Of a stretch of 64,000 nt of DNA, positions 19,808-62,519 are shown piece after piece; position 1 is the stretch's first letter; each line of letters starts with the position of its first letter. The stretch is from Escherichia phage JLBYU31, in the sequence record OK272473.1; one strand, given 5' to 3'. The notes below the pieces were generated by a model that was not told the DNA's origin, searched no databases, and saw nothing but the letters and a program-made list of their open reading frames with translations. The translations under genes were made by a program, and so were the position numbers.

Positions 19808-19810
19808 CAA

Positions 19811-19841
19811 TGGGGACCTTTCGGTCCCCATGTTTTTATTT
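19811..19841. terminator. hairpin TGGGGACC-TTTC-GGTCCCCA followed by TGTTTTTATTT, between convergent gene 54 and minus-strand ORF
   Basis: 8-bp stem, T-run on plus side. Confidence 0.75.
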
Positions 19842-20126
19842 ACGGAATGAAATAAAAGCAGCAACTGAAGCAACTAAACTGTCTTCAATATAAACTTCAA
19901 TTTTTACCGGAGCTTCTGACTCAAATTTACCTGTTACTACACCTTGGAAAATGCTTTCAGTCTGTTCTGGCTTTGAAAAATTTTCAGAAGGAAAAATTCC
20001 GAACTTTTTATCTGTTCCAAAAATTTTGATAAATTCATCGTAAACTGCTTCATTAAAAGCATTATCAGCAGGAATAACGCCTTCAACTACAAGTTCTTGA
20101 CCTAAAAAGCGCAAAGAAGATTTCAT
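19836..20126 (-). CDS. hypothetical protein (96 aa)
   Basis: ATG preceded by SD GAGGAA and the early-promoter repeat. Confidence 0.65.
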   Translation of the reverse strand: MKSSLRFLGQELVVEGVIPADNAFNEAVYDEFIKIFGTDKKFGIFPSENFSKPEQTESIFQGVVTGKFESEAPVKIEVYIEDSLVASVAAFISFRK

Positions 20127-20133
20127 TTTGTGT

Positions 20134-20187
20134 TCCTCATGTTATGTCAGTAAGATTACTATAACACAACACGAGGGACTTGTAAAC
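20134..20187. repeat. 54-bp perfect direct repeat, copy 1 (copy 2 at 35952-36005)
   Basis: Identical 54 nt at both loci, checked base by base. Confidence 0.9.
20158..20187 (-). promoter_or_regulatory. early promoter GTTTAC-N18-TATAGT with TGn extended -10 (minus strand)
   Basis: Matches T4 early promoter architecture; located directly after the stop of the upstream Alt paralog. Confidence 0.6.
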
Positions 20188-22244
20188 TACATTTTGAACT
20201 TTTTAGACATTCCGTTGATGTTAACCAAAGAAGCCAAGATTTGAGAAACTTCGTTTTCCTCTTCTTTTGATTCTTCTACAAGGAATTGATTAAATCCAGC
20301 CATTGGACGAACTTCACCAGTTTCCATTAGATGGTCGCCATCATATACCGATTCCTCTAATTGTTCAGAAGGAGGAACGATTGTACCTTCTATTAGATAC
20401 TTGTTATAAGCAGTTTCTTTCATAAAGTACGTGCTCACTTTATTAATCTTCAGTAAAATTCCACGCGGTAGAATAACTTCAGCTTCTGATGGAAATCCTG
20501 ATAAATGACCTGGAACGATAACTTTGATTCGCTCAGCTCCTTTAATTACCATACCCACGCTAGTTTCAGCATCTTCATTAGCATATGTAGAATGACTACC
20601 CATATGCATCAAATCTTCTGCATCAACGGAACCTTCTCCTTCGCCAGAAAATACTGCACCGGAATCATCTAGAGCCATATAGTTTTTACCATGCTCACCG
20701 AAGATATTTGGTTTAAGCGATGTGGATACGAAGTTCTTGAAATAGAACATTTTGTTTTCAATGTTATGACGCAAAGTTTTAAAGGTAACTTCTTGCCCAC
20801 GATAAAGAGTAGTTCCTGGAGGAAGAACTGAACCTTTAGCGAATGCAGAATCCAACGTCTCAATATGTTTAATAGCTCGTTCCATATATTCTTCACGGGT
20901 AGAATCTGGTTTACCCAAGAGGAACGAGTTCATTTCAACATATGAATCTGCACAATAATCTTCAATTACATCAGACTCAGCCTGAGTCAGTCCTTTTGGA
21001 GTTACTTCGGTGCTTGCGTATTCATACGCCTGGGCAGCAGATTCATTAATCAATTTATAAATGCCATTCATGACAAATTGAATAATAGCTGTCTTTTCAT
21101 CTGGCGTAGCTTTAGAACCTTTAACTAAATCATTAATAATTTTCTTAATAACATCAAAGCTATTAGAAATATTAATGTCAGCAAGATCGCTTAAAATTTT
21201 ATCAGTTTTATAATCAAAGAATTCTTTATTCTTTAAATATTCTTGAGAACCTTGATATGTTATATCGCTCTGCAACTTGATGGATGGATCACGTAAACGT
21301 GCATGGGCTAATGCAATATGATTTCGGAAGTTTTCTAGTTCATAATCGCTAGATTTAAAACGAGAAGCGCTCCTCATACCACCGATAGCTCCTTTGTTGA
21401 AGTTTGAACCAATCTGAATAACGCCAGAGTTCATTGGTCCTTCTGCTTTATATACCGGAACTTTAGATTCAAACTCTTGATATTTCTTAGCAGCGAAGCT
21501 ATCACCCTGAAGTGAAGCATCAACAGTAGAATATTGAGCTTGTGCTGCTAATCGACGACTAATTTTAGTTTTCTGAATAACAGCTTGATCCGTGCGCTTA
21601 TCATTTTCTAAGGCAATAGAAGCAGCAACAGCAACAGCTTTAGGAACAGCATTACCTGTTTTAACGTCTACATAAACATCACCAACCTTTGATTCAACTT
21701 TTGTGAATAACTCAGTTGAAATAGGAGGTACACCTGGAATGTCTTCTAAATTGGCATTTTTACGGTAAACCATAATATATGCATATTTCTTATCATAGTC
21801 CCAGATTTCCTTTAAAAGAACATATCGGCCTGCTCCTTTAGTACGTACTAAACGGTCAGCAATAACTTGCATTTGACGAGCTGCGCCATTTGTTTTACTC
21901 TTTAGTACGCGGAATAAGCATGCATCAATTTTATACTGTTTCATTGTTTGAAGAGCAGTATCAAAAACAGCATTAATGACGCCAATTGGATTTCCACCCA
22001 AGTTTTTAAGCTTAACTAATGATAGTTTCTCATTAACACCTATCATTACGATATGCATCATTTTGTCGCCTGGCTTAACGTTTTTATTCGTATCACCGCC
22101 AGAGGTGTATGTACAAAATCTAAATCCAGGAAGCACGCTTTCTTCACCGGCTTGAATAGCAAAAATTTGTGGTATTTTATGCTTAGGATTTAAGTTAACA
22201 ACCGGCGCCGAAGCGCCGTCAAATAATTCTGTAATAAGTTCCAT
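20187..22244 (-). CDS. Alt-family ADP-ribosyltransferase paralog (685 aa)
   Basis: N-terminus MELITELFD shared with the adjacent paralog; C-terminal R-S-E motifs (LYRGQ, FVSTSL, EAEVILPRG). Confidence 0.8.
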   Translation of the reverse strand: MELITELFDGASAPVVNLNPKHKIPQIFAIQAGEESVLPGFRFCTYTSGGDTNKNVKPGDKMMHIVMIGVNEKLSLVKLKNLGGNPIGVINAVFDTALQTMKQYKIDACLFRVLKSKTNGAARQMQVIADRLVRTKGAGRYVLLKEIWDYDKKYAYIMVYRKNANLEDIPGVPPISTELFTKVESKVGDVYVDVKTGNAVPKAVAVAASIALENDKRTDQAVIQKTKISRRLAAQAQYSTVDASLQGDSFAAKKYQEFESKVPVYKAEGPMNSGVIQIGSNFNKGAIGGMRSASRFKSSDYELENFRNHIALAHARLRDPSIKLQSDITYQGSQEYLKNKEFFDYKTDKILSDLADINISNSFDVIKKIINDLVKGSKATPDEKTAIIQFVMNGIYKLINESAAQAYEYASTEVTPKGLTQAESDVIEDYCADSYVEMNSFLLGKPDSTREEYMERAIKHIETLDSAFAKGSVLPPGTTLYRGQEVTFKTLRHNIENKMFYFKNFVSTSLKPNIFGEHGKNYMALDDSGAVFSGEGEGSVDAEDLMHMGSHSTYANEDAETSVGMVIKGAERIKVIVPGHLSGFPSEAEVILPRGILLKINKVSTYFMKETAYNKYLIEGTIVPPSEQLEESVYDGDHLMETGEVRPMAGFNQFLVEESKEEENEVSQILASLVNINGMSKKFKM

Positions 22245-22247
22245 GAT

Positions 22248-24344
22248 TTATCCTTGAACGAACTTGTAAGGCATGTTTGTAATATCTATGCAAGACGCAA
22301 TAATTCCAAGAGATGATTCTACTTTCTGTTTAACGTTTGATGAAACAAATGATGCAAAGTCAACTCTGTCTTCTATTTCAATATCACCTGTCATTGCAAC
22401 CAATTCACCAGTTTCCATTAAATGGTCTCCATCATAGATTACCGATTCGGTGAGCTCTTCCGTAGTCATAACTTCAGCTTGAATGAGTTTTGTATTATTA
22501 GATGTTGTTCCGTCATTATTAGAAGCATCAGTTATTTTATTAACTTTGACCATCAATCCACGCGGTAGAATAACTTCAGCTTCTGTTGCTATTCCGAGAC
22601 TTCCTGGATATACAACATTAACTTTATGAGCTCCATCAATTGCCCATCCTATTTGAACTTTAACGTATTCAGGATTTTCTTTATACGCTCTTATTTCGTT
22701 TGGATTAATAGTTATTCCTTCTTCATTTTTATCAACTGTTAATTCATTGCGAGCTTCTGGTTCTAAAAGACCAATACCAGCATGTGTAATTCCAAAACGT
22801 CCAAAAATGATAGGAGTTAAAGAAGTAGATACAAAATTTCTGAAGTAGAACACTTTATTTTTAACTAACGCTTCATATATAGGAGCAGTCATACTTTGAG
22901 CACGATAAACTGTAATGCCTTCTGGTATACGGTCACCATTTTCAAAAGCTGAATCTAAGTTATTTATAGCAGATTCAATTTCTTTTTCACTCATTACATC
23001 ATATCGTTCTGGATTGTAACGACCTAAAAGAAGATTATTGATGTCAGTATATCCTGAACCGCAATATTCTCTAATGCCATGCTTTTGTGATGGAGTATAT
23101 TTAGAACCATCGCGGGCAATAGTAATATCAATCATTGGACCAGCACCAATTCCAGAAAAACTGTAAATCATTCGTTTGAGGAATTTAGTTTTTGCTGCGT
23201 TCCAGGAATTTTTAGTTATTTCTTCCCAGACTTCATCTGGTTGTCCTTTACGATTTTTATTATGATTAGCAAGCCATTTATCTTTATAATCTTCAAAGAA
23301 TTGATTTATAGCTGCTGCGTATTTCTCTAAACATTTTATTGAAGTAGTTGGTTCATTTTTAATTGCATTAAAAATTACTTCTTTAATTTTTTCTGAAACT
23401 TCACCGACTTGACTCATTGGAAAGAATTTATAATCATAGTGAAGTTCATCTGCCGTTCCTTCAGCAATAATTTTTGCTGCCTTTGTTTTAGAAGCTAATG
23501 AATTAATTCCAATTTTCATTTCTTCTGCTTCGGGAATTAAAGGTGCAGTAGCTGGTTTATTAAAATTAGCTGCTGTAGATTCATACTTCTGGAATAATTC
23601 ACTTTCAAATCTAGAAGATTCCAATGACTGACTTTGTGCAATTGCTCTACGGGAAATTTTAACTTTAACGATTACAGCTTGGTCAGAACGTTTATCGTTT
23701 TCTTGCGCAATAGATGCAGCAATTGCTTCATTTTTGGTTACTTGAGCTCCAGTATCTTTATTAATATAAACATCACCGACCTTCGATTCAACCTTAGTAA
23801 AGAGCTCGGTACTAATTTCCGGAACCCCTGGAATGTCTTCTAGTGATACATTTTTGCGATGTATAAGAATATATGCATACTTTTTATCATAATCCCAGAG
23901 TTCCTTAAGAAGGACGTATCTGCCACCTGAACGACTACGGATAAGTCTATCAGCAATAACTTGAATTTGTCGAGCTTGGCCAGCAGTTTTAGACTTAAGA
24001 ATACGAAGCATACAAGCATCAATTTTATATTGACGCATTGTTTGCATTGCAACAGTAAAAACTGAATTGATATAATTAATTGGGCTTGGACCAAGACCTT
24101 TTAATTTAGCAATTGAACCTTTAGCAGTTAATGTAAAAGGAACAATATGCATCATTTTGTCGCCCATTTTTAAATCACGATTAGTATCACCTCCAGATGT
24201 ATAGGTACATAAACGAAAGCCTGGTTGTTCAATTGCATCATCAACATGAACTGAAAAAATTTGTGGTATTTTCTTCTTTGGATTTAAGTTTGTAATCGGA
24301 AGAGTAGTATCTTCGTCAAATAATTCTGTAATGAGTTCCATCAT
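22248..24344 (-). CDS. alt: Alt ADP-ribosyltransferase (698 aa), head-packaged internal protein
   Basis: N-terminus MELITELFD; R-S-E motifs (VYRAQ, FVSTSL, EAEVILPRG); late promoter immediately upstream; position next to ligase gene. Confidence 0.8.
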   Translation of the reverse strand: MMELITELFDEDTTLPITNLNPKKKIPQIFSVHVDDAIEQPGFRLCTYTSGGDTNRDLKMGDKMMHIVPFTLTAKGSIAKLKGLGPSPINYINSVFTVAMQTMRQYKIDACMLRILKSKTAGQARQIQVIADRLIRSRSGGRYVLLKELWDYDKKYAYILIHRKNVSLEDIPGVPEISTELFTKVESKVGDVYINKDTGAQVTKNEAIAASIAQENDKRSDQAVIVKVKISRRAIAQSQSLESSRFESELFQKYESTAANFNKPATAPLIPEAEEMKIGINSLASKTKAAKIIAEGTADELHYDYKFFPMSQVGEVSEKIKEVIFNAIKNEPTTSIKCLEKYAAAINQFFEDYKDKWLANHNKNRKGQPDEVWEEITKNSWNAAKTKFLKRMIYSFSGIGAGPMIDITIARDGSKYTPSQKHGIREYCGSGYTDINNLLLGRYNPERYDVMSEKEIESAINNLDSAFENGDRIPEGITVYRAQSMTAPIYEALVKNKVFYFRNFVSTSLTPIIFGRFGITHAGIGLLEPEARNELTVDKNEEGITINPNEIRAYKENPEYVKVQIGWAIDGAHKVNVVYPGSLGIATEAEVILPRGLMVKVNKITDASNNDGTTSNNTKLIQAEVMTTEELTESVIYDGDHLMETGELVAMTGDIEIEDRVDFASFVSSNVKQKVESSLGIIASCIDITNMPYKFVQG

Positions 24345-35100: not shown

Positions 35101-35450
35101 TTAGAAAGGTCCTGGATGTCTTCTGTGAACTTGTTGAAGGAGTTGTTGATTTGTTTTTCAACCAATCCTGGCTTATGAGCCACCACATCCGCCTTCTTTG
35201 CGTCTTTGCGCAGTTTTTCATTTTCACGCTCAATAGCAGCAATTGCCTCACGATTTTTATTATTCATCGCATCAATATAATTATACTGAATTCGCAAATT
35301 ATTTAATGCTAAAGCGTTTTCATTGGCCGTTTTTGTAATTTCTACAACAGACGTTTCTAATCTTTCAATTTTATTTTTTAAAATTAAAGAAGTTCCGCCT
35401 AATGCAATTACAATTAATAGCAAGCCTGCTGTCGTATTACTTAATTGCAT
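35097..35450 (-). CDS. i-spanin (inner-membrane, Rz-like)
   Basis: N-terminal TM segment TAGLLLIVIALGGTSLIL followed by charged coiled-coil region. Confidence 0.65.
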   Translation of the reverse strand: MQLSNTTAGLLLIVIALGGTSLILKNKIERLETSVVEITKTANENALALNNLRIQYNYIDAMNNKNREAIAAIERENEKLRKDAKKADVVAHKPGLVEKQINNSFNKFTEDIQDLSK

Positions 35451-35947
35451 AAAGTTTTAATAACCTCTATAATATCGTCTTGAGAAAGACCGTTAATTAA
35501 AATATGATGTTCAGCCGGAGATTTAGAAATTTTAAAGCATGCCTCAACATCTTCTGCCATATCCGATGCGCTACGATTTGGATTACTAATTCCAAGACGA
35601 TGTTTTCCCGTTAAAGGATTAACGATGATATAGCATTTACAGTTGTTAATATGAACATTAGGTTGAGTCTGATTAATGAACACATCACAATCATATTTCG
35701 CAAGCTGATTTTCTAAAAAGACTTTCATCTCCTCAACCGCATCAGGAAGCATATCACGGGCTTGCTCAAGACGACGATTTCGATATTCTTTAATGGTCGT
35801 TTTCCGCTTGACTTGCTTAGCTAAATCTTTCTTAAGATCGGTGATATATCCAACTCGACGATTTCCTTTAAATACAGAAATCCCATCTGTAGTATCACCG
35901 TATGCTTCAACGACCATCTCAGTAGTAATAAGCTGCAAATCCATCAT
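35441..35947 (-). CDS. alc: Alc, host transcription unfolding/termination protein
   Basis: 168-aa ORF at T4 alc position between pseT cluster and rnlA; preceded by early promoter. Confidence 0.7.
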   Translation of the reverse strand: MMDLQLITTEMVVEAYGDTTDGISVFKGNRRVGYITDLKKDLAKQVKRKTTIKEYRNRRLEQARDMLPDAVEEMKVFLENQLAKYDCDVFINQTQPNVHINNCKCYIIVNPLTGKHRLGISNPNRSASDMAEDVEACFKISKSPAEHHILINGLSQDDIIEVIKTLCN

Positions 35948-35951
35948 AAAG

Positions 35952-36005
35952 TCCTCATGTTATGTCAGTAAGATTACTATAACACAACACGAGGGACTTG
36001 TAAAC
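35952..36005. repeat. 54-bp perfect direct repeat, copy 2 (copy 1 at 20134-20187)
   Basis: Identical 54 nt. Confidence 0.9.
35976..36005 (-). promoter_or_regulatory. early promoter GTTTAC-N18-TATAGT upstream of alc
   Basis: Within the 54-bp repeat; SD GAGGA 5 nt before the alc ATG. Confidence 0.6.
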
Positions 36006-36008
36006 AGC

Positions 36009-37596
<1,588 letters not shown>

Positions 37597-46232: not shown

Positions 46233-46285
46233 ATTATTTTCCTCTTTAATCATCAGCAGTATTGCCGATAGTTGTATAGTACCAT

Positions 46286-46315
46286 GGAAGGACAAGGATG
46301 TAAACCGTTTTGTGA
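46286..46315 (-). promoter_or_regulatory. early promoter GTTTAC-N18-TACTAT (TGg extended -10) with A/T-rich UP region
   Basis: Directly downstream of the gene 32 terminator; resembles the motA promoter at 62440-62469. Confidence 0.5.
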
Positions 46316-46320
46316 AAAAA

Positions 46321-46355
46321 ATTTGAAATAAAAAAGGGGACCTCTAGAGGTCCCC
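46321..46355 (-). terminator. gene 32 terminator: hairpin GGGGACC..GGTCCCC + UUUUUUAUUU
   Basis: Palindrome ggggacctctagaggtcccc 23 nt after the gene 32 stop, U-run on minus strand. Confidence 0.8.
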
Positions 46356-62398: not shown

Positions 62399-62439
62399 TT
62401 TCTAATCTCCGTAATTCTGTATCAGTAGTTGATAGTTGT

Positions 62440-62469
62440 ATAGTACCACAGTATGCTTTGGTTGTAAAC
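62440..62469 (-). promoter_or_regulatory. early promoter GTTTAC-N18-TACTAT (TGg extended -10) upstream of motA
   Basis: On minus strand between terminator 62476-62519 and the motA ATG; A/T-rich UP element. Confidence 0.55.
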
Positions 62470-62475
62470 CGTTTT

Positions 62476-62519
62476 GTGAAAAAATTTTAAAATAAAAAAG
62501 GGAGAGCCTCGGCTCTCCC
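62476..62519 (-). terminator. hairpin GGGAGAG-CCUCGG-CUCUCCC + U-run (minus strand)
   Basis: GC-rich palindrome 6 nt after the stop of the 49-aa ORF, followed by UUUUUUAUUUU. Confidence 0.75.

What the first reader, a model, noticed from the sequence alone, without database searches (positions are those of the whole stretch)
20134..20187. 54-bp perfect direct repeat carrying an early promoter and leader at two loci 15.8 kb apart
The identical 54 nt (tcctcatgttatgtcagtaagattactataacacaacacgagggacttgtaaac) occur at 20134-20187 and 35952-36005, with flanking bases that differ. On the minus strand each copy reads GTTTAC-N18-TATAGT followed by a leader ending in the SD GAGGA, and each sits between the stop of one gene (Alt paralog; rnlA) and the ATG of the next (96-aa ORF; alc). 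Perfect identity in non-coding DNA of this length implies recent duplication or gene conversion, or strong selection on a shared regulatory module. Co-oriented repeats would also allow deletion of the intervening 15.8 kb by recombination.
Basis: seen in the sequence. Interest (0 to 1): 0.55.

Follow-up and report, generated by a model that had tools for sequence, protein, structure and literature searches.

The report
Duplicated early promoter with self-masking leader
Two identical 54-bp copies of a T4-type early promoter plus ribosome-binding leader sit in front of the alc and alt.-3 genes; the pair is an old, fixed feature of T4-like phages rather than a recent event, and the sequence also encodes a hairpin predicted to let only RNAs started at this promoter be translated.

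Summary
The same 54 nt occur at 20134-20187 and 35952-36005, with unrelated flanks. Nine other early-type promoters in the window share only 25±5 of 54 positions with one another.

The window is a Tequatrovirus (T4-like phage). On the minus strand each copy reads TTTACA-N17-TGtTATAGT, then a leader and the SD GAGGA. One copy precedes alt.-3, the other alc.

The pair is not recent. 498 of 499 Tequatrovirus records, including T4, carry both copies. In 20 genomes the two copies differ by 0-5 nt, and copies in one genome are no more alike than copies from different genomes (P=0.16).

Outside Tequatrovirus the alt.-3 promoter is of a different type. The alt.-3 site therefore probably acquired a copy of the alc module once, in the Tequatrovirus ancestor.

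The new point is a hairpin. The promoter spacer (CCUCGUGUUGUGUU) pairs with the leader and SD (GACAUAACAUGAGG), at -22 kcal/mol and z=-5.8. Read-through RNA should mask the SD. RNA started at this promoter lacks the 5' arm.

Upstream of alc, this spacer/SD complementarity is kept with different sequences in many genera.

Deleting the 15.8-kb interval would remove essential genes 30 and 31, and no such deletion is seen.

This is a variant of the known T4 e/soc/49/I-TevI logic. Transcript starts and translation were not tested.

The parts
20134..20187 (-). Copy 1 of the 54-nt module (upstream of the alt.-3 homologue): promoter, leader and SD
   Evidence: Exact repeat; sequence read
35952..36005 (-). 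Copy 2 of the 54-nt module (upstream of alc)
   Evidence: Exact repeat; sequence read
20181..20186 (-). Copy 1 -35 hexamer TTTACA (T4 early form GTTTAC starts at 20187)
   Evidence: Promoter scan, 10/12 with 17-nt spacer; T4 early consensus GTTTAC at -36..-31 (PMC1524935)
20158..20166 (-). Copy 1 extended -10: TGt + TATAGT
   Evidence: TG_before_second = yes
35999..36004 (-). Copy 2 -35 hexamer TTTACA
35976..35984 (-). Copy 2 extended -10: TGt + TATAGT
20163..20176 (-). Copy 1, 5' arm of the hairpin (CCUCGUGUUGUGUU). It lies in the promoter spacer and is absent from RNA started at this promoter (predicted +1 about 20151)
   Evidence: strand folding: -22 kcal/mol, z -5.8, 0/200 shuffles; fold in context
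20135..20148 (-). Copy 1, 3' arm of the hairpin (GACAUAACAUGAGG), which includes the SD GAGG(A) at 20134-20138
35981..35994 (-). Copy 2, 5' arm of the hairpin (predicted +1 about 35969)
35953..35966 (-). Copy 2, 3' arm of the hairpin, which includes the SD at 35952-35956
19836..20126 (-). alt.-3 homologue (96 aa), the gene served by copy 1
   Evidence: ORF list; tblastn hits annotated alt.-3; T4 annotation
20187..22244 (-). Alt paralogue (685 aa), upstream of copy 1. Its stop codon overlaps the repeat by 1 nt. In T4 it is reduced to alt.-1/alt.-2
22248..24344 (-). alt (698 aa)
   Evidence: alt is late in T4 (PMC9697503)
24365..24372 (-). Late-promoter motif TATAAATA, 21 nt upstream of the alt ATG. 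Likely source of late read-through into copy 1
35441..35947 (-). alc (inhibitor of host transcription), the gene served by copy 2. T4 annotates the second ATG (35944) as the start
36009..37133 (-). rnlA (RNA ligase 1), upstream of copy 2. The start is placed by the 1125-nt length of the annotated orthologues; the mechanical ORF runs to a GTG at 37169
19810..19831 (.). Two-way terminator-like hairpin after alt.-3 (between alt.-3 and gene 54). It marks the end of the leftward transcription unit

Best explanation
Each copy is a self-contained expression module of a T4-like phage, made of three overlapping parts.

(1) Promoter. It is a sigma-70 'early' promoter of the T4 type: GTTTACA at -35, a 17-bp spacer, TGn, TATAGT. 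It fires immediately after infection.

(2) Leader. A short leader carries the Shine-Dalgarno GAGGA for the downstream early gene (alc or alt.-3).

(3) Hairpin. The promoter spacer is complementary to the leader and SD. RNA that reads through from the upstream gene (rnlA; or the late-expressed alt and Alt paralogue) folds into a hairpin of about -22 kcal/mol that buries the SD. RNA started at the module's own promoter begins inside the hairpin (about A37 of the 54-mer), lacks the 5' arm, and has an open SD. Translation of alc and alt.-3 would thus be tied to their own early promoter and switched off on middle or late read-through RNA.

The overlapping constraints (promoter elements, both helix arms, SD) explain why nearly all 54 positions are conserved.

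History. The masked-SD promoter is the ancestral state upstream of alc in many T4-like genera. In the ancestor of Tequatrovirus a copy replaced the unrelated alt.-3 promoter by ectopic recombination or conversion. Both copies have since been held near the same sequence by purifying selection.

Shown here: the repeat, the promoter match, the predicted hairpin and its covariation, the distribution across genomes, and published early expression of both genes in T4. Inferred: the transcription start, masking in vivo, and the direction of the copy event.
For: Repeat and promoter:
- The repeat is exact and the flanks are unrelated.
- Both copies score 10/12 with TG and a 17-nt spacer. This fits the T4 early consensus (PMC1524935; PMC2988021) and the PST/T4 PeSL promoter form TTTACW-N17-TAYWAT, except for one base of the -10 (PMC4122927).
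- No terminator-like site lies between the upstream genes and the modules.

Expression in T4:
- alc and alt.-3 are early-RNA/early-protein. alt is late, alt.-1/-2 middle, rnlA early RNA/late protein.
- TATAAATA sits 21 nt upstream of alt.

Hairpin:
- -22 kcal/mol, z=-5.8, 0/200 shuffles.
- In 150-nt read-through context P(SD unpaired) is about 0. Opening SD+AUG costs 12-13 kcal/mol, and the whole initiation region 17.5-20. In the primary transcript these costs are 3-4.5.

Covariation upstream of alc:
- Across 18 lineages, cognate spacer/SD duplexes average -16.1 vs -8.9 kcal/mol for non-cognate pairs. The cognate is best in 13/18; permutation p<=5e-5.
- In a 7-sequence alignment, 16 pairs are 95.5% paired, 4 pairs change on both sides, and the covariation score is 0.238 vs 0.118 in shuffles (0/500). 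Slid registers give 37-51% paired.

Within Tequatrovirus:
- Variation sits in the loop (positions 32-34), the bulge (27), or keeps pairs (16 G.U>A.U, 15 C.G>U.G, 40 U.G>U.A, 49 G.U>G.C). There is one compensatory pair, 15T/50A.
- Nucleotide diversity of the element is 0.033/0.055, against 0.083-0.085 at codon position 3 of the downstream genes.

History:
- Both copies are in 498/499 Tequatrovirus records.
- alt.-3 promoters of Dhaka-, Mosig-, Marfa- and Kanagawavirus are of another type and fold weakly (-6.9 to -12.6 kcal/mol), without the spacer-SD helix.

Known precedent: RBS-sequestering helices with an internal promoter at T4 e, soc, 49 and I-TevI (PMC3014915).
Against: - No transcript 5' ends, RNA structure probing or translation data were available for these loci. 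The +1 is inferred from spacing only.
- The primary alt.-3 transcript is predicted to pair its SD weakly with codons 3-5 (P unpaired about 0.03, though only about 3 kcal/mol to open).
- Outside Tequatrovirus the helix is almost all Watson-Crick, and a sense/antisense energy test does not favour the sense RNA (8 of 15). A DNA-level role for the inverted repeat is therefore not excluded.
- Many other early promoters carry a hairpin across the -10 that does NOT include the SD (14 of 23 have the hairpin; only 7 mask the SD). The primary function of such hairpins may be something other than SD masking.
- Mosigvirus alc promoters and a few others lack the masking helix.
- The upstream regions differ between the two copies (A-rich for alt.-3, not for alc), so the two promoters need not be equally strong.
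- I could not reach the T4 genome review (Miller et al. 2003) to check whether the repeat or the hairpin is already described.
Confidence: 0.6

Rival explanations
1. Recent duplication or gene conversion in this particular genome produced the perfect identity.
For: The two copies are 54/54 identical here, and both carry A at position 32 where most relatives have G.
Against: Both copies exist at the same two loci in 498/499 Tequatrovirus records. Identity of 0 differences is also seen in 3 of the other 19 sampled genomes. A32 occurs independently at either locus in other genomes: alc in PhiZZ30 and PinkRuby; alt.-3 in Kha5h, EPIMRB01, CT01 and ZN18. Position 32 is in the hairpin loop, one of the few free sites.
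Confidence: 0.1
2. Ongoing concerted evolution: repeated ectopic gene conversion between the two loci keeps them alike across Tequatrovirus.
For: There is no fixed difference between the two loci. Four variants (16A, 27C, 32A/G, 33A) segregate at both loci. T4-type recombination acts on patches under 50 bp, and exchanges between early-promoter cassettes have been shown (PMC2839356). The Mosigvirus alc promoter resembles its own alt.-3 promoter (80%) more than other alc promoters (61-68%), which suggests a second, opposite replacement.
Against: Same-genome copies are not significantly closer than copies from different genomes (2.25 vs 2.46 nt; P=0.16). The shared variants lie exactly at structure-neutral or pair-preserving positions, so recurrent mutation at the few free sites explains them. 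The alt.-3 copy carries private variants (11T, 15T, 29A, 34T) at appreciable frequency.
Confidence: 0.2
3. The hairpin's main job is on the upstream RNA, not on translation of the downstream gene. It could be a 3'-end stabiliser or processing site (for example RNase III, or a barrier to 3' exonucleases after cleavage), or an attenuator of read-through, as proposed for the stem-loops of PeSL cassettes.
For: The hairpin starts right after the stop codon of the upstream gene. Promoter-spanning hairpins that do not include the SD are common in these phages. PeSL stem-loops act as terminators in RB49 (PMC2839356).
Against: No U-tract follows the stem (ACACAAAAUG; CUUUAUGAUG), and the terminator scan calls nothing there. 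In the alc lineages the helix is positioned so that its 3' arm ends exactly on the SD, in many different sequences.
Confidence: 0.2
4. The inverted repeat acts in DNA. It might extrude as a cruciform or otherwise help melting of a very strong promoter, or serve as a structure-specific protein target.
For: The arms flank the -10 and the start site. Outside Tequatrovirus the pairs are nearly all Watson-Crick, and the antisense strand folds as well as the sense strand.
Against: In Tequatrovirus 3 of 18 pairs are G.U, and the sense RNA folds at -22 vs -13 kcal/mol for the antisense. Arm sequences differ between promoters, so there is no sequence-specific protein site. No precedent is known to me for sigma-70 promoters.
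Confidence: 0.08
5. Assembly artefact or chance repeat.
For: None.
Against: 0 matches in shuffles. The repeat is present in hundreds of independently sequenced genomes, including T4.
Confidence: 0.01

Closest known systems
Bacteriophage T4 early promoters (Pe)
   Same: GTTTAC(A) -35, 17-bp spacer, TGn, TAnnnT -10. Located just 5' of genes expressed immediately after infection and read by unmodified host sigma-70 RNA polymerase.
   Different: Ordinary Pe's share only the consensus: 25±5 of 54 positions in this window, maximum 36. These two share all 54, including spacer and leader. The A-rich UP region is good at the alt.-3 copy and poor at the alc copy.
PeSL cassettes (promoter-early stem-loop) of T4-like phages (Arbiol et al. 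2010, PMC2839356; Comeau et al. 2014, PMC4122927)
   Same: A repeated cassette of early promoter + SD + start codon between genes. Similarity between cassettes offers sites for homologous exchange. The replacement of the alt.-3 promoter by the alc-type module is the kind of event PeSL recombination predicts.
   Different: In PeSLs the stem-loop lies upstream of the promoter in an intergenic gap and acts as a terminator. Here there is no gap: the stop codon abuts or overlaps the -35, the stem-loop spans the promoter's own -10 and start site, it has no U-tract, and its 3' arm is the SD. There are only two copies, 15.8 kb apart, flanking essential genes rather than a variable ORF.
RBS-sequestering hairpins with an internal promoter at T4 genes e, soc, 49 and I-TevI (reviewed in Uzan & Miller 2010, PMC3014915)
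   Same: SD/AUG buried in a helix on long read-through transcripts. A promoter placed within the region encoding the 5' strand gives a shorter RNA that lacks that strand and is translated.
   Different: The known cases use late promoters (TATAAATA), which silences early read-through and allows late translation. Here the embedded promoter is an early sigma-70 promoter, so the timing is reversed: translation early, silence on later read-through. The 5' arm is the -35/-10 spacer itself. alc and alt.-3 are not among the cases listed in that review. No experimental test exists for these loci.

Membership tests
T4-type early promoter (Pe) | -35 GTTTAC(A), 17±1 bp spacer, -10 TAnnnT | tested here: met
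   TTTACA-17-TATAGT, 10/12 to the sigma-70 consensus at both copies; GTTTAC read directly
T4-type early promoter (Pe) | Extended -10 TGn | tested here: met
   TGt immediately 5' of TATAGT
T4-type early promoter (Pe) | A/T-rich UP region about -40 to -60 | tested here: inconclusive
   The alt.-3 copy has CTAAAAAGTTCAAAATGTA just upstream. The alc copy has TTATCCCAGAAGGATACTAAGCT, with the A/T tract further away
T4-type early promoter (Pe) | Drives a gene expressed in the early class | tested here: met
   T4 alc and alt.-3 are early-RNA/early-protein in published time-resolved omics, and differ in class from their upstream neighbours (PMC9697503 supplements; text)
T4-type early promoter (Pe) | Mapped primary 5' end downstream of the -10 | not testable with these tools
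   No TSS data set for T4 was found in the held literature
PeSL cassette | Strong sigma-70-like early promoter followed by SD and start codon | tested here: met
   PST/T4 PeSL promoter form TTTACW-N17-TAYWAT
PeSL cassette | Stem-loop upstream of the promoter that terminates incoming transcription | tested here: not met
   There is no intergenic space upstream. The stem-loop overlaps the promoter and leader. No U-tract; no terminator-like call
PeSL cassette | Recombination between copies (mini-circles, indels of the flanked ORFs) | tested here: not met
   No genome among 499 lacks the interval. The single one-copy record is a 113-kb record that ends before the second locus. Mini-circles cannot be tested here
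RBS-sequestering hairpin with internal promoter (e/soc/49/I-TevI class) | SD and/or AUG paired in a stable helix on read-through RNA | tested here: met
   By prediction only: P(SD unpaired) about 0; 12-20 kcal/mol to open
RBS-sequestering hairpin with internal promoter (e/soc/49/I-TevI class) | Promoter placed so that its own transcript lacks the 5' strand of the helix | tested here: met
   By geometry: -10 at positions 25-30, expected +1 about position 37, 5' arm at positions 12-25. Opening cost falls to 3-4.5 kcal/mol. The start site itself is inferred
RBS-sequestering hairpin with internal promoter (e/soc/49/I-TevI class) | Helix conserved in relatives through compensatory change | tested here: met
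   alc promoters of many genera
RBS-sequestering hairpin with internal promoter (e/soc/49/I-TevI class) | Internal promoter is a late (gp55) promoter | tested here: not met
   It is an early sigma-70 promoter, and no TATAAATA lies in the element. I therefore file it as a variant, not a member
RBS-sequestering hairpin with internal promoter (e/soc/49/I-TevI class) | Measured difference in translation between long and short transcripts | not testable with these tools
   Needs reporter fusions or toeprinting

The most novel reading that the evidence does not exclude
Promoter-embedded hairpins are a general design of early promoters in T4-like phages. The -35/-10 spacer is written to pair with the start of the transcript, so every early gene distinguishes 'my own promoter's RNA' (open) from read-through RNA (folded; SD masked in a subset such as alc). 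The whole promoter-leader cassette can be transplanted between loci by ectopic recombination. That happened from alc to alt.-3 in Tequatrovirus, and possibly in the opposite direction in Mosigvirus.
Probability: 0.35. Interest if true: 0.6.

Novelty: new variant of a known kind. Interest (0 to 1): 0.4.

Why it matters
If the model holds, alc (the shut-off factor for cytosine-DNA transcription) and alt.-3 are made only from their immediate-early promoters. They stay silent on the abundant middle and late RNAs that run through them from rnlA and alt. That would extend the classic T4 lysozyme-type control to the opposite temporal direction.

It would also explain why a 'non-coding' 54-mer is conserved base for base. 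And it gives a concrete example of a promoter-leader cassette being copied between distant loci in T4-like phages.

There are practical consequences. Annotation pipelines should treat this sequence as a promoter plus RNA structure. Engineered T4 constructs that place genes behind these junctions will be translated only if the module's own promoter fires.

The bare repeat itself is ordinary: it is present in T4 and in essentially every Tequatrovirus genome.

Tried and rejected
- Shared polymorphisms as proof of gene conversion. Four variants occur at both loci; my first hypergeometric estimate was about 0.0015. I dropped this because all four sit at loop, bulge or G.U positions, the few sites free to vary. 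The same-genome association test is also not significant (P=0.16).
- RNAalifold on a MAFFT alignment of 19 alc elements returned no structure, because the arms are in different registers in different lineages.
- A covariance model built from 7 sequences finds both window copies (20.7 and 23.9 bits) but aligns the Tequatrovirus arms out of register. It also picks up reverse-strand hits. I therefore did not count pairs on that alignment.
- The sense versus antisense folding test, meant to decide between an RNA and a DNA role, favours sense RNA clearly only in Tequatrovirus.
- An IMG/VR pattern scan for the spacer gave only 7 stretches. I used GenBank phage records instead.
- Literature. The T4 genome review (PMC150520) is not held. 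Searches for promoter names (Pe136, Pe123) and for alc plus hairpin found nothing relevant. No T4 TSS map was found.
- Direction of the copy event from pairwise identity alone is not decisive for Tequatrovirus (71-76% to either type). The inference rests on presence or absence of the spacer-SD helix.
- The one record with a single copy (PQ799574, 113 kb) was considered as a possible deletion. I rejected this because the record ends before the expected second locus.

Full report
**Observation.** The 54-mer TCCTCATGTTATGTCAGTAAGATTACTATAACACAACACGAGGGACTTGTAAAC occurs exactly twice in the window, at 20134-20187 and 35952-36005. Both copies are on the same strand. There are no further matches with up to three mismatches and none in 100 shuffles. 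The repeat finder reports it as a two-copy family at 100% identity and 15,818 nt spacing. The bases on either side differ at once.

Read on the minus strand, each copy is GTTTACAAGTCCCTCGTGTTGTGTTATAGTAATCTTACTGACATAACATGAGGA. That is TTTACA, 17 nt, TATAGT preceded by TG, scored 10/12 by the promoter scan, and ending in the SD GAGGA.
- Copy 1 follows the Alt-paralogue ORF, whose TAG stop shares its G with GTTTAC. It precedes the 96-aa alt.-3 homologue.
- Copy 2 follows rnlA and precedes alc.

**More than promoter consensus.** I extracted ten GTTTAC-type promoters on the early strand of the window and compared them position by position. Leaving out the focal pair, the 44 pairs share 24.9 ± 5.2 of 54 positions, with a maximum of 36. 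Sharing 54 of 54 cannot be convergence on a consensus; the two copies have a common origin.

**Where the window comes from, and how old the pair is.** The window is a Tequatrovirus, identical over the tested stretches to phage JLBYU24. A sensitive BLAST of the 54-mer finds 997 places in 499 phage records. That is two per genome in all but one record, a 113-kb record that ends before the second locus.

T4 itself has both copies, with one and two differences from the window. In T4 the Alt paralogue is reduced to alt.-1/alt.-2, but the last ~20 nt before the module are kept.

I fetched both loci from 20 genomes, deliberately including the most divergent, and compared them.
- The two copies of one genome differ by 0-5 nt, mean 2.25. 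Four of the 20 genomes have identical copies.
- Copies from different genomes differ by 2.46 nt on average, so same-genome copies are not significantly closer (permutation P = 0.16).
- There is no fixed difference between the loci.

The perfect identity in this window is thus the low end of a standing distribution, not the trace of a recent event.

**Selection.** Nucleotide diversity of the element is 0.033 (alc copy) and 0.055 (alt.-3 copy). Third codon positions of the downstream genes show 0.083-0.085.

**The hairpin.** Folded as RNA, the 54-mer forms one hairpin of -22 kcal/mol. Shuffles average -8.2 ± 2.4, giving z = -5.8, and 0 of 200 shuffles fold as well. Positions 12-25 (CCUCGUGUUGUGUU, the promoter spacer) pair with positions 40-53 (GACAUAACAUGAGG, leader plus SD). 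A short apical helix (AGUA/UACU) sits above them. The -10 hexamer and the expected start site, about A37, lie inside the hairpin.

| Context | P(SD unpaired) | Cost to open SD+AUG | Cost to open whole initiation region |
|---|---|---|---|
| Read-through, 150 nt of upstream RNA | ~0 (both copies) | 12-13 kcal/mol | 17.5-20 kcal/mol |
| Primary transcript from position 36-38 | 0.3-0.99 (alc copy); ~0.03 (alt.-3 copy) | 3.1-3.6 kcal/mol | 3.2-4.5 kcal/mol |

 From general knowledge of SD masking (de Smit and van Duin; recalled from memory, not checked here), differences of this size correspond to very large differences in initiation.

No terminator-like site separates the upstream genes from the modules, and no U-tract follows the stem. 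Read-through RNA should therefore exist.

**Comparative test of the hairpin.** I collected the region upstream of alc from five annotated genomes of other genera and from 37 IMG/VR contigs. Almost all have a GTTTAC promoter abutting the rnlA stop. In most, the spacer is complementary to the leader and SD, with different sequences in different lineages. Examples of the 5' arm / 3' arm:
- UCUCCAUUUGGUUGUG / CACUAACCAAAUGGAGA
- UCCUCAUUUCGUU / AACGAAAUGAGGA
- CCUCGUUUGUU / AACAAACGAGG
- CCCAUUUUGUUGUG / CACUAACAAAAUGGG
- ACCUCUCAUUUU / AAAAUGAGAGGU
- UCUCCUCAU / AUGAGGAGA

Across 18 lineages the cognate spacer/leader duplex averages -16.1 kcal/mol, against -8.9 for non-cognate combinations. The cognate partner is the best of 18 in 13 lineages, and no permutation in 20,000 does as well.

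In a register-consistent subset of seven sequences:
- 16 pairs are 95.5% paired;
- four pairs change on both sides;
- the covariation score is 0.238, against 0.118 ± 0.025 in shuffles (0/500);
- sliding the partner by 1-3 columns drops pairing to 37-51%.

Within Tequatrovirus the variable positions fall into three groups:
- loop (32-34) and bulge (27);
- changes that keep or improve pairs (16 G.U>A.U, 15 C.G>U.G, 40 U.G>U.A, 49 G.U>G.C);
- one compensatory pair, 15T/50A.

A few rare variants (12A, 18A, 29A, 40T) break a pair.

**History.** Outside Tequatrovirus the promoter in front of alt.-3 is of another type. It has a small covarying palindrome in the spacer (CCACAAGGATGTGG, GCACAAGGAAGTGC, ACACATGGATGTGT), and the elements fold weakly (-6.9 to -12.6 kcal/mol), without the spacer-SD helix.

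The masked-SD type is thus ancestral at alc and derived at alt.-3. The simplest account is a single replacement of the alt.-3 promoter by a copy of the alc module in the Tequatrovirus ancestor. Mosigvirus alc promoters resemble their own alt.-3 promoter (80%) more than other alc promoters (61-68%), which hints at an exchange in the other direction there. I regard that as suggestive only.

Exchanges between early-promoter cassettes are documented for T4-like phages (PeSLs). Mapped crossovers lie between the -10 and the SD or ATG, and T4 recombination needs less than 50 bp of homology (PMC2839356; PMC4122927).

**Expression context.** In T4, published time-resolved transcriptome and proteome data class alc and alt.-3 as early RNA and early protein. 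The upstream genes are in other classes: alt late, alt.-1/-2 middle, rnlA early RNA but late protein (PMC9697503). The window has the late-promoter motif TATAAATA 21 nt upstream of alt.

In both places, then, an immediate-early gene lies directly downstream of a gene transcribed or needed later, with no terminator between them. A device that ties translation to the gene's own early promoter makes sense at both sites. This last step is inference.

**Comparison with what is known.**
- The promoter itself is an ordinary T4 early promoter.
- The repeated cassette resembles a PeSL but fails one defining feature: an upstream terminator stem-loop.
- The hairpin works like the inhibitory structures at T4 e, soc, 49 and I-TevI, where a promoter inside the structure gives a translatable short RNA (PMC3014915). 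Those use late promoters, and the review does not mention alc.

I therefore file the element as a variant of that mechanism, not a member.

**Caveats.**
- No 5' ends, structure probing or translation data exist for these loci in what I could search.
- Outside Tequatrovirus the sense/antisense test does not single out the sense RNA.
- Of 23 distinct early promoters in five genera, 14 have a helix joining spacer and leader but only 7 mask the SD. Promoter-spanning hairpins may therefore have a more general role that I have not identified.
- The T4 genome review could not be consulted.

**The deletion idea.** The interval between the copies contains genes 30 (DNA ligase) and 31 (GroES-like co-chaperonin) among about 30 genes. 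Both are classical essential genes of T4 (from general knowledge of T4 amber mutants). A deletion would not be viable on its own, and no sequenced genome shows it. Rare recombinant molecules in lysates remain possible and could be sought by PCR.

**Verdict.** The promoter reading is right. 'Recent duplication or conversion' is not supported. The pair is an ancient, selected, duplicated promoter-leader module, and its full-length conservation is best explained by an SD-masking hairpin built into the promoter. Interest is moderate: the repeat is ordinary for T4, while the hairpin model is a testable, apparently undescribed variant of a known T4 control.

Noticed in passing
window 28750, 29142, 32681, 45304 (minus-strand coordinates of the G of GTTTAC); also L028-L031: Other early-type promoters also carry a hairpin joining the -35/-10 spacer to the first transcribed bases: 32681 GGUAGAG.../...CUCUACC, z about -4; 28750, z about -5 to -6; 29142 masks its SD. 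Of 23 distinct promoters in five genera, 14 have at least 6 such pairs, 8 have z<-2, and 7 mask the SD. This may be a general trait of early promoters in T4-like phages.
   Followed up: partly
L028:602-655, L029:571-623, L030:~610-663, L075-L087 (alt.-3 upstream regions of other genera): alt.-3 promoters outside Tequatrovirus have a short palindrome in the spacer that covaries: CCACAAGGATGTGG, GCACAAGGAAGTGC, ACACATGGATGTGT, CCACAAGGACGTGG. The Mosigvirus alc promoter has a similar one (CACCAAGGATGGTG). Its function is unknown.
   Followed up: partly
window 20124-20141 and 35942-35959 (minus strand): The AUG inside the leader (CAUGAGGA) opens a mini-ORF of 5 codons (alt.-3 copy) or 4 codons (alc copy). 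In both it ends in a UGA that overlaps the real start codon (AUGA), although the sequence after the repeat differs between the copies. There is no SD in front of it, so this may be coincidence.
   Followed up: no
window 46267-46338 and 62431-62502: A second pair of related regulatory cassettes, 85% identical over 72 nt. On the minus strand each has the end of a terminator (CCCTTTTTTATTT), an A-rich tract and a GTTTAC early promoter. This is the classical PeSL layout.
   Followed up: no
window 20187-22244 and 22248-24344: Two tandem Alt-like ADP-ribosyltransferase genes (685 and 698 aa), with patches of 73-94% nucleotide identity at about 2094-nt spacing (families D1, D7, D11, D19). T4 keeps only fragments of the second (alt.-1, alt.-2), as do PD112 and ELT1.
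   Followed up: partly
window 19810-19831: A perfect 9-bp GC-rich hairpin (ATGGGGACC...GGTCCCCAT) with T-runs on both strands, between the convergent alt.-3 and gene 54. It looks like a two-way terminator.
   Followed up: no
L020 (phage Shinka) 15546-16179: alc is annotated as two CDS pieces (120 nt and 456 nt) in this genome, so it is possibly disrupted. The upstream module is intact and identical in both copies.
   Followed up: no
L038, L039, L067 (VR26-like Dhakavirus contigs): Here the region upstream of the alc match has no GTTTAC promoter. Instead it has a terminator-like hairpin (AAAAAGGGGTGTACAAGCCCCTTCTTTCT), and the alc match is about 240 nt longer. The junction has been remodelled in this lineage.
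   Followed up: no
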